8,789 bases of DNA from a virus (lineage: Duplodnaviria > Heunggongvirae > Uroviricota > Caudoviricetes), in IMG/VR virus record IMGVR_UViG_2778261162_000002, positions 1 to 8,789 of that record; one strand, written 5' to 3'. Positions within the stretch are counted from its first letter, which is position 1, and every line of letters begins with the position of its first letter. Made by a program: the position numbers and the translations under genes. Shown one piece after another: positions 3,276 through 3,297 of this stretch. A model generated the notes under the pieces. That model worked only from the letters and a program-made list of their open reading frames with translations. It searched no databases and was not told the origin of the DNA.

Positions 3276-3297
3276 AAAAAAACCCGCCGAAGCGGGT
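3276..3297 (-). terminator. Rho-independent terminator, minus-strand orientation, at the 3' end of the accessory cassette
   Basis: Plus strand 3276-3297 is aaaaaaa-cccgc-cgaa-gcggg-t. On the minus strand this is a 5-6 bp GC stem with a cgaa-type tetraloop followed by seven T. It sits 12 nt upstream of the spike gene start codon. Confidence 0.6.

What the first reader, a model, noticed from the sequence alone, without database searches (positions are those of the whole stretch)
3276..3297. Intrinsic terminator inside the late operon, 12 nt before the spike gene start
A GC-stem hairpin plus T7 tract in the same orientation as the tail genes should stop transcripts before the spike, wedge, J, I and fibre genes, which the phage needs in stoichiometric amounts. 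This is tolerable if late transcription is antiterminated (lambdoid Q-type) or if a promoter exists within the cassette. It fits the moron model: the cassette can be expressed and terminated autonomously in a lysogen without reading into the structural genes.
Basis: partly seen in the sequence, partly recalled or inferred. Interest (0 to 1): 0.5.

Follow-up and report, generated by a model that had tools for sequence, protein, structure and literature searches.

The report
Conserved terminator before phage spike gene
A textbook transcription stop signal sits 12 bases before the tail-spike gene of an E. coli prophage; related prophages keep it at the same spot, where it closes a slot for swappable accessory genes, and the phage carries a Q antiterminator that would let late transcription pass it, a known lambdoid arrangement.

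Summary
On the gene (-) strand, 3298..3276 reads GACCCGC-UUCG-GCGGGUU followed by U7. The hairpin is about -12 kcal/mol and ends 12 nt before the spike (V) ATG at 3264.

It is not chance. In 80 related Enterobacterales loci, 66 sense-strand terminators fall in the 250 nt before V, against 0-8 in any other bin. 65 of 68 loci with an intergenic gap have one, 15-24 nt from the ATG, with compensatory stem changes. It is present whatever the cargo, and even at some empty sites, so it belongs to the site rather than to this cassette.

The identical prophage (E. coli UPEC 26-1) has a Pfam-confirmed Q antiterminator and a pR'-tR'-like layout 19 kb upstream. This hairpin is the only strong sense terminator I predicted between the lysis genes and the fibre genes.

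The variable DNA is 3298..4101 (two ORFs, 35% GC). The ORF before it, a secreted 121-aa protein, is conserved. A sigma70-like promoter embedded in the hub gene's 3' end (4581..4553) is under very strong synonymous constraint and co-occurs with the terminator.

Best reading: a pre-wired moron slot (promoter, secreted protein, cargo, terminator) that insulates the spike-to-fibre genes in lysogens and is read through by Q-modified polymerase. This is a known kind, closest to the P22 "ant moron". No transcript data were available.

The parts
3276..3298 (-). Intrinsic (Rho-independent) terminator: stem GACCCGC/GCGGGUU, UUCG loop, U7 tract.
   Evidence: Sequence, scan, fold. Positional conservation and covariation in relatives.
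2626..3264 (-). Spike gene V (212 aa). Shine-Dalgarno-like GGGG at 3273..3270.
   Evidence: Pfam PF18352 at 2.4e-41, plus GpV Apex motif. The start ATGCCAATTCC is conserved in relatives.
3309..3521 (-). Cargo ORF of 70 aa with a good Shine-Dalgarno sequence (AAGGTGA). Function unknown.
   Evidence: A small ORF sits in the same position in Kosakonia and Rahnella relatives. No family hit.
3530..4087 (-). Cargo ORF of 185 aa, a hydrophobic protein that looks like a membrane protein (my reading of the sequence). Its TTG start overlaps the stop of the upstream gene (TTGA).
   Evidence: phrog_23273 at 1.9e-14. 16 homologues, always in this slot where context was read. No Pfam or PADLOC family.
3298..4101 (.). 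The DNA segment not shared with relatives (the variable cargo), about 35-40% GC against about 55% in the flanks.
   Evidence: blastn breakpoints at 3287-3297 and 4102-4103. Composition.
4084..4449 (-). Conserved secreted 121-aa protein: signal peptide plus a predicted 8-stranded beta-barrel. First gene of the slot.
   Evidence: Found after the hub gene in most of the 80 loci. phrog_3443 at 1.2e-46. 112 homologues, some named 'Secreted protein'. Model pLDDT 85.7.
4553..4581 (-). Candidate sigma70 promoter inside the hub gene's 3' end: -35 TTTATA, 17-nt spacer, -10 TATACT.
   Evidence: Scan. Hub codon 321 is ACT in 47 of 49 relatives (4e-32), the most constrained of 310 testable codons. Codon 313 is TAT in 60 of 67. 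The element co-occurs with the terminator.
4451..5515 (-). Baseplate hub gene (354 aa), the last conserved structural gene before the slot.
   Evidence: PF22759 E217_GP41 at 9e-6, below Pfam's cut-off. Conserved synteny.

Best explanation
The element is a functional intrinsic terminator that closes a fixed accessory-gene slot between the baseplate hub gene and the spike gene of a lambdoid myovirus prophage.

In the lysogen, host RNA polymerase that has not been modified by Q is released at the hairpin and U7 tract. Such polymerase would start at a weak sigma70 promoter embedded in the last 100 nt of the hub gene, or at spurious sites in the AT-rich cargo. It would transcribe the secreted 121-aa protein and the two cargo ORFs and then stop. 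The spike, wedge, fibre and invertase-proximal genes therefore stay silent.

After induction, polymerase loaded with the phage Q protein at the late promoter about 19 kb upstream is terminator-resistant. It reads through, and the spike is translated from the Shine-Dalgarno sequence that directly follows the U tract.

What is shown and what is inferred:
- Shown from sequence: the terminator anatomy, its conservation, the Q gene and the pR'-tR'-like layout, the extent of the cargo, and the synonymous constraint on the -10 element.
- Inferred: that termination and readthrough actually occur, and that the promoter fires in lysogens.
For: 1. Canonical anatomy: a 7-bp GC-rich stem, UUCG loop and U7 tract, at about -12 kcal/mol.
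2. Position kept across genera. 63 of 80 loci were found by the scan, plus 2 by eye (one with a long loop, one cut by a contig end). The stem ends 15-24 nt before V in all but one scanned site. 12 of the 15 loci without a terminator have no intergenic gap at all.
3. Positional peak: 66 sense terminators in the 250 nt before V, against 0-8 per bin elsewhere over 784 kb.
4. 52 distinct hairpins among 64 sites. 96.3% of stem cells are paired, and 4 of 7 pairs change on both sides, which 0 of 500 shuffles reach. Slid controls give 30-54% paired.
5. The terminator is independent of cargo. The same position is occupied with Phd/Doc, DUF4236, a 372-aa ORF, small ORFs, and at empty sites.
6. Q antiterminator: PF06530 at 1e-41 in the identical prophage. 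A TATAAT sits about 40 nt before a terminator just upstream of the holin gene.
7. Q or Q-like genes are also annotated in Hafnia phage yong1, Yersinia phage YP3 and Klebsiella phage ST405-OXA48phi1.2.
8. In UPEC 26-1, yong1 and Omnitron, this is the only strong sense terminator predicted between the packaging genes and the fibre genes.
9. Embedded promoter: Thr321 is ACT in 47 of 49 (4e-32), while Thr324 uses all four codons evenly. The Shine-Dalgarno codon of the next gene is also picked up, which serves as a positive control. A -10-like element co-occurs with the terminator in 49 loci against 3, with 8 and 10 in the other cells (Fisher 2e-5).
10. Precedent: morons carry their own promoter and terminator for expression from repressed prophages (PMC3594210). 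Phage L authors propose that intra-operon terminators may stop transcription that started without antitermination (PMC8022706).
Against: - No transcript data are available. Termination efficiency, Q readthrough and promoter activity are all untested.
- Six loci have hub, terminator and V with no cargo and no -10-like element (L034, L035, L042, L044, L059, L077). There the terminator has nothing obvious to insulate against, so insulation of a moron cannot be its only role.
- Klebsiella phage ST405-OXA48phi1.2 has antisense cargo and no terminator before V, so the element is dispensable.
- The promoter-like site scores only 9 of 12, and window-wide promoter counts do not exceed shuffles.
- The binomial and Fisher tests are not corrected for shared ancestry.
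Confidence: 0.6

Rival explanations
1. Dosage attenuator. The terminator is only partly overcome even by Q-modified polymerase, and so lowers the mRNA level of the spike, wedge and fibre genes relative to the sheath, tube and tape-measure genes upstream.
For: - It is present at empty sites that have no cargo and no embedded promoter. That argues for a role in late transcription itself.
- It is the only terminator I predicted inside the structural part of the operon.
- In P22, the region 5' of the tailspike gene is thought to affect how often late-promoter polymerase reaches the tailspike gene (PMC2629481, citing Adams et al. 1985).
- Partial termination is one of the two roles proposed for such terminators in phage L (PMC8022706).
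Against: - Q-modified polymerase is generally highly resistant to intrinsic terminators (established knowledge for lambda, not tested here).
- About one in seven relatives fuse V directly to the upstream gene with no terminator, and ST405-OXA48phi1.2 lacks it. A dosage step is therefore not required for assembly.
- This role does not exclude the insulator role.
Confidence: 0.2
2. RNA stability or processing element. The hairpin acts mainly as a 3' protective stem-loop for the upstream message (or a 5' structure for the spike message) after cleavage of the long late transcript, rather than as a site of polymerase release.
For: A stable UUCG hairpin lies at an intercistronic position and is conserved with compensatory changes.
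Against: A stabilising hairpin does not need a U tract. Yet every one of the 64 conserved sites was found by a scan that requires a T-rich tail directly after the stem, and most show a run of 5-8 T. The combination is the signature of termination.
Confidence: 0.1
3. Chance hairpin, or a neutral relic of past cargo insertions, with no present function.
For: - Within the window alone, terminator-like matches are no more frequent than in shuffles.
- Homology breakpoints fall at the hairpin, as expected if it simply arrived with the inserts.
Against: - The 66-site positional peak.
- Maintenance across spike proteins only 45-97% identical, with compensatory changes.
- Sharing of one hairpin between different cargos (L003/L005 against L008).
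Confidence: 0.03

Closest known systems
[quoted passage not shown]
   Same: - A hypervariable accessory region sits inside the late operon, directly before the host-contact structural gene.
- It is the only such insertion site in the morphogenetic cluster.
[quoted passage not shown]
   Different: - Here the phage is a myovirus, and the downstream gene is the baseplate spike followed by wedge and fibre genes.
- The cargo is unrelated (no ant, mnt or arc).
- The slot begins with a conserved secreted protein.
- The promoter appears to be embedded in the preceding structural gene.
- The terminator is kept even at empty sites.
Morons of lambdoid phages (HK97 gene 15 type)
   Same: Extra DNA relative to related phages, deviating GC content, a terminator at the downstream end, and a location between tail genes (PMC3594210).
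   Different: - The promoter and terminator seem to belong to the site and are shared by unrelated cargos, rather than travelling with each insert.
- The cargo ORF is translationally linked to the conserved upstream gene.
Intra-operon terminators of lambdoid late operons (phage L, P22, lambda) read through by Q-type antitermination
   Same: A strong Rho-independent terminator lies inside an operon that has a single late promoter and a Q-family antiterminator. The phage L authors state that the roles of such terminators are not known (PMC8022706).
   Different: Here comparative data show strong positional conservation and a link to an accessory-gene slot, which narrows the likely role.
P2-type operon boundary before gene V (own memory, not checked here)
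   Same: In P2, the V-W-J-I-H-G genes form their own unit, and an accessory gene (orf30) sits just before V.
   Different: P2 uses an Ogr-activated promoter before V. Here only 11 nt separate the U tract from the ATG, so there is no room for a promoter, and the phage uses Q.

Membership tests
Intrinsic (Rho-independent) terminator | GC-rich stem-loop of about 5-10 bp with a short loop. | tested here: met
   A 7-bp stem (5 G-C pairs) with a UUCG loop, at -11.7 to -12.2 kcal/mol.
Intrinsic (Rho-independent) terminator | A run of U immediately 3' of the stem, on the transcribed strand. | tested here: met
   U7 at 3282..3276 on the gene strand. The opposite strand has no T-rich tail, so it is unidirectional.
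Intrinsic (Rho-independent) terminator | Releases RNA polymerase, producing 3' ends at the U tract. | not testable with these tools
   Needs Term-seq, 3' RACE or in vitro transcription.
Q-antiterminated lambdoid late operon | Q-family antiterminator gene upstream of the lysis and structural genes, on the same strand. | tested here: met
   L001 36763..36341 matches PF06530 over its full length at E 1e-41 and phrog_79. Q is also annotated in yong1 and YP3, and a DUF1133 Q-like protein in ST405-OXA48phi1.2.
Q-antiterminated lambdoid late operon | A late promoter followed closely by a terminator (pR'-tR') before the lysis genes. | tested here: inconclusive
   A TATAAT at L001 35696..35691 is followed by a terminator at 35653..35632, with the holin gene at 35526. 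The -35 element is weak with a 19-nt spacer, the Q binding site was not identified, and the tool scan did not call this promoter.
Q-antiterminated lambdoid late operon | Q-dependent readthrough of downstream terminators. | not testable with these tools
   Needs RNA-seq with and without Q, or a reporter assay.
Moron | Extra DNA absent from closely related phages. | tested here: met
   3298..4101 has no counterpart in relatives whose flanks are 84-96% identical. Only 4 of the 42 E. coli genomes with this prophage type carry it.
Moron | GC content different from the surrounding genes. | tested here: met
   0.335-0.405 across 3301-4100, against 0.52-0.60 in the flanks.
Moron | Own terminator. | tested here: inconclusive
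   A terminator is present at the downstream edge, but it is a fixture of the site. It is found with unrelated cargo and at empty sites.
Moron | Own promoter allowing expression from the repressed prophage. | tested here: inconclusive
   There is no room for a promoter between the conserved ORF and the cargo (TTGA overlap). A constrained -10/-35 pair lies in the hub gene's 3' end, upstream of the conserved secreted-protein gene. Its activity is untested.

The most novel reading that the evidence does not exclude
The hub-spike junction of this widespread group of lambdoid myovirus prophages is a pre-wired expression slot. A sigma70 promoter is hidden in the coding sequence of the hub gene, and a fixed terminator sits 15-24 nt before the spike gene. 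Together they form a permanent lysogen-expressed unit. Unrelated cargo (toxin-antitoxin pairs, putative membrane proteins, DUF4236 and others) is swapped into it behind a conserved secreted beta-barrel protein. The control signals therefore belong to the phage backbone and not to the morons, and the terminator is what makes the site a safe harbour.
Probability: 0.4. Interest if true: 0.45.

Novelty: new member of a known kind. Interest (0 to 1): 0.3.

Why it matters
Terminators inside lambdoid late operons are seen often, but their roles are described as unknown (PMC8022706).

Here comparative data tie one such terminator to a fixed accessory-gene slot. They also give a concrete, testable layout: embedded promoter, secreted protein, cargo, terminator.

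If confirmed, this would help annotate prophage cargo and defence hotspots in Enterobacterales. It would help predict which prophage genes are expressed in lysogens. It would also give a natural insulated site for engineering temperate phages.

It does not change the accepted picture of Q antitermination or of morons.

Tried and rejected
- **Rfam, permissive threshold, 2900-4700.** Only a sub-threshold Trp_leader match (28.5 bits against a gathering score of 41) over 3351..3274. I read this as generic terminator resemblance. Upstream sequences are unrelated between cargo types, so no conserved antiterminator structure exists.
- **Bidirectional terminator.** Rejected, because the + strand has no T-rich tail.
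- **Promoter between the terminator and V.** Impossible, with only 11 nt available.
- **Promoter inside the cargo.** Promoter-like sites are no more frequent than in shuffles (7 against 7.7), and any such transcript would meet the terminator anyway.
- **Cargo function.** No Pfam, PADLOC or PDB sequence match for the 185-aa and 70-aa ORFs. A precomputed weak PycTM (PF18967) flag on two homologues was not reproduced by direct hmmscan, so I make no defence-system claim.
- **Secreted 121-aa protein.** The model is confident, but Foldseek against PDB gave only non-significant avidin/lipocalin-like barrels (E 0.09 or worse, TM 0.44-0.49).
- **Adams et al. 1985** (P22 tail protein gene expression) could not be read because it is not held.
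- **Does the terminator travel with the cargo?** Mixed result. The same cargo usually has the same hairpin, but L008 (Phd/Doc) shares its hairpin with L003 and L005, which carry different cargo.

Full report
**1. What is in the sequence**

All long ORFs of the window run on the - strand. From high to low coordinates they are:
- tape measure with an SLT domain, 8436..6427;
- a 200-aa baseplate protein, 6427..5825;
- a 101-aa plug protein, 5823..5518;
- a 354-aa hub protein, 5515..4451;
- three small ORFs;
- spike V, 3264..2626;
- the W-like sheath initiator, 2622..2269;
- baseplate J, 2268..1069;
- the wedge protein, 1072..392.

On that same strand, 3298..3276 reads GACCCGC-UUCG-GCGGGUU followed by seven U in all. 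Next comes AUGGGGUUUUU and then the spike ATG at 3264. The consensus scan lists it as a 7-pair stem with 5 G-C pairs. The centroid fold of the 66-nt surround is this hairpin alone, at -12.2 kcal/mol. The hairpin by itself folds at -11.7 kcal/mol. The opposite strand has no T-rich tail, so the element is unidirectional.

**2. Is it more than chance?**

Within the window alone, the loose scan finds as many terminator-like sites as it does in shuffled sequence (10 against 8.7). The window by itself therefore proves little.

The comparison with relatives is decisive. Seven E. coli prophages with 84-96% identical flanks carry different inserts: DUF4236 on the opposite strand, Phd/Doc, a 372-aa ORF, and small ORFs. 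All seven have a hairpin and T run at exactly this position.

A scan of one genome per species returned 80 loci whose spike proteins are 45-97% identical to this one. My own scan found a hairpin and T run in 63 of them, with the stem ending 15-24 nt before the spike ATG in all but one. Two more are visible by eye: one has a 12-nt loop, and one is cut by a contig end.

Of the 15 loci without a terminator, 12 have no intergenic gap at all, because V abuts the preceding gene.

Over the 784 kb of these loci, 66 sense-strand terminators fall in the 250-nt bin just before V. Every other bin holds 0-8.

The 64 sites comprise 52 different hairpins and 12 different inner stems. On an alignment of the 35 sites with 4-nt loops:
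- 96.3% of stem cells pair;
- 4 of 7 pairs show changes on both sides;
- none of 500 shuffles reaches these values;
- slid-partner controls pair in only 30-54% of cells.

The element is therefore under selection as a hairpin-plus-U-tract at this exact place.

**3. The setting**

The window is 99.6% identical to a prophage of E. coli UPEC 26-1. About 19 kb upstream on the same strand, that prophage has a full-length Q antiterminator (PF06530 at E 1e-41; phrog_79). Downstream of Q there is a TATAAT, followed about 40 nt later by a terminator, and then the holin gene. This is the pR'-tR' layout of lambdoid late operons. The -35 element is weak, however, and the Q binding site was not identified.

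My scan for strong sense-strand terminators in this prophage finds two between Q and the holin gene, then only the present hairpin in the roughly 24 kb of lysis, head and tail genes, and then one after the invertase gene.

The same pattern holds in relatives:
- Hafnia phage yong1: Q is annotated. Terminators lie after Q and after the lysis genes, with one weak site just after. The next one is 23 nt before V.
- Citrobacter phage Omnitron: terminators in the early part of the late operon, then one directly before V.
- Yersinia phage YP3 has an annotated Q, and Klebsiella phage ST405-OXA48phi1.2 a DUF1133 Q-like protein.
- ST405-OXA48phi1.2 has antisense cargo and no terminator before V. The element is therefore common but not obligatory.

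**4. What the cassette really is**

blastn breakpoints against 14 relatives fall at 3287-3297, within the hairpin, and at 4102-4103. The DNA specific to this prophage is therefore 3298..4101. It has 34-40% GC against about 55% around it. It holds a 185-aa hydrophobic, probably membrane, ORF and a 70-aa ORF.

The ORF upstream of it (4449..4084, 121 aa) has a signal peptide. It is not cargo, because it follows the hub gene in most of the 80 loci, belongs to phrog_3443 and has 112 database relatives.

The 185-aa ORF starts with a TTG that overlaps the stop of that conserved gene (TTGA). No promoter fits between them.

Homologues of the 185-aa ORF in Kosakonia (64% identity) and Rahnella (53%) sit in the same slot. 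Each is followed by a small ORF and then by the terminator.

No family or defence-system assignment could be made for the cargo. A precomputed weak PycTM flag was not reproduced.

**5. A promoter hidden in the hub gene**

The scan tool lists TTTATA, a 17-nt spacer and TATACT at 4581..4553 on the - strand. This lies inside the last 45 codons of the hub gene and about 100 nt before the secreted-protein gene.

A codon-level comparison of about 70 hub homologues gives the following:
- Thr321, whose third base is the final T of the -10 hexamer, is ACT in 47 of 49 cases. The family-wide share of ACT is 0.19.
- Thr324, three codons later, uses the four codons 21:19:13:15.
- Codon 321 is by far the most synonymously constrained of 310 testable codons (4e-32; the next is 6.5e-11).
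- Codon 313, within the -35 element, is in the top eight.
- Codon 351, which forms the Shine-Dalgarno sequence of the next gene, is also in the top eight. This serves as a positive control for the method.

A -10-like hexamer co-occurs with the terminator. The counts are 49 loci with both, 3 with only the -10, 8 with only the terminator, and 10 with neither (Fisher 2e-5). These tests are not corrected for shared ancestry. The saturated synonymous sites next door argue that the signal is real.

This suggests one unit: promoter in the hub gene's 3' end, secreted protein, cargo, terminator.

**6. Mechanism proposed**

- In the lysogen, unmodified polymerase starting at the embedded promoter, or at spurious sites in the AT-rich insert, is released at the hairpin. 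The accessory genes are then expressed without reading into the spike, wedge and fibre genes.
- After induction, Q-loaded polymerase from the late promoter ignores the terminator. The spike is translated from the GGGG that follows the U tract.
The terminator lies downstream of the whole cassette and only 11 nt from the ATG.

The main weakness is that six relatives have hub, terminator and V with neither cargo nor the -10 element. Insulating a moron therefore cannot be the element's only role. Partial attenuation of late transcription, or stopping stray transcription in general, remain open. Both are the options named for such terminators in phage L (PMC8022706). All transcript-level steps are inferred.

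**7. Comparison with what is known**

Morons are defined as extra DNA with deviating GC content and their own promoter and terminator for expression from repressed prophages (PMC3594210).

P22-like phages have a single hypervariable 'ant moron' directly 5' of the tailspike gene, inside the late operon. It is thought to affect how often late transcription reaches that gene (PMC2629481).

The present case has the same architecture in a myovirus with unrelated cargo. It has two particular traits: the control signals appear to belong to the backbone, and the slot opens with a conserved secreted protein. I therefore rate it a new member of a known kind, of modest interest (0.3).

**8. Side observations**

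- The secreted protein models confidently (pLDDT 85.7) as a signal helix plus an 8-stranded barrel. It has no significant structural match.
- The spike's C-terminal third (2623..2815) is a second mosaic breakpoint.

Noticed in passing
window 4553-4581 (- strand), inside the hub gene: A sigma70-like promoter (TTTATA, 17-nt spacer, TATACT) is embedded in coding sequence. Hub codon 321 is ACT in 47 of 49 relatives (4e-32), the strongest synonymous constraint in the gene. The Shine-Dalgarno codon of the next gene is also detected by the same test.
   Followed up: yes
window 4084-4449 (- strand): A conserved 121-aa secreted protein (signal peptide, two conserved Cys residues) follows the hub gene in most relatives. 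Its model (pLDDT 85.7) is an 8-stranded beta-barrel with only non-significant avidin/lipocalin-like matches. Its role is unknown; superinfection exclusion is my own untested guess.
   Followed up: partly
window 3530-4087 and 3309-3521 (- strand): The cargo pair (a 185-aa hydrophobic, probably membrane, protein and a 70-aa protein) recurs in the same slot in Kosakonia and Rahnella prophages at 53-64% identity. Two homologues carry a precomputed weak PycTM (PF18967) flag that direct hmmscan did not reproduce.
   Followed up: partly
window 2623-2815 (- strand, C-terminal third of the spike gene): There is a second mosaic breakpoint. Relatives align at 92-96% on both sides of this segment but not within it, and their spike proteins are 246 aa rather than 212 aa. 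The spike tip domain appears to be exchanged.
   Followed up: no
L001 35632-35696 and 35880-35903 (- strand): Downstream of the Q gene there is a TATAAT followed about 40 nt later by a terminator, just before the holin gene, and a second terminator further upstream. This is a pR'-tR'-like layout. A 113-aa ORF sits between Q and these signals.
   Followed up: partly
L001 11253-12961: A pinE-type invertase gene lies next to the tail fibre and fibre-assembly genes, suggesting an invertible host-range segment downstream of the genes that the terminator shields.
   Followed up: no
L002-L008, L009, L010 (slot between hub and spike genes): The slot holds very different cargo in close relatives: a Phd/Doc toxin-antitoxin pair, DUF4236 on the opposite strand, a 372-aa ORF, and a 'HypF finger' protein on the opposite strand. 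It behaves as an accessory-gene hotspot.
   Followed up: partly
window 3274-3351 (- strand): A sub-threshold Rfam match to Trp_leader (28.5 bits, gathering score 41, E 0.003) covers the end of the 70-aa ORF and the terminator. I read it as generic terminator resemblance.
   Followed up: partly
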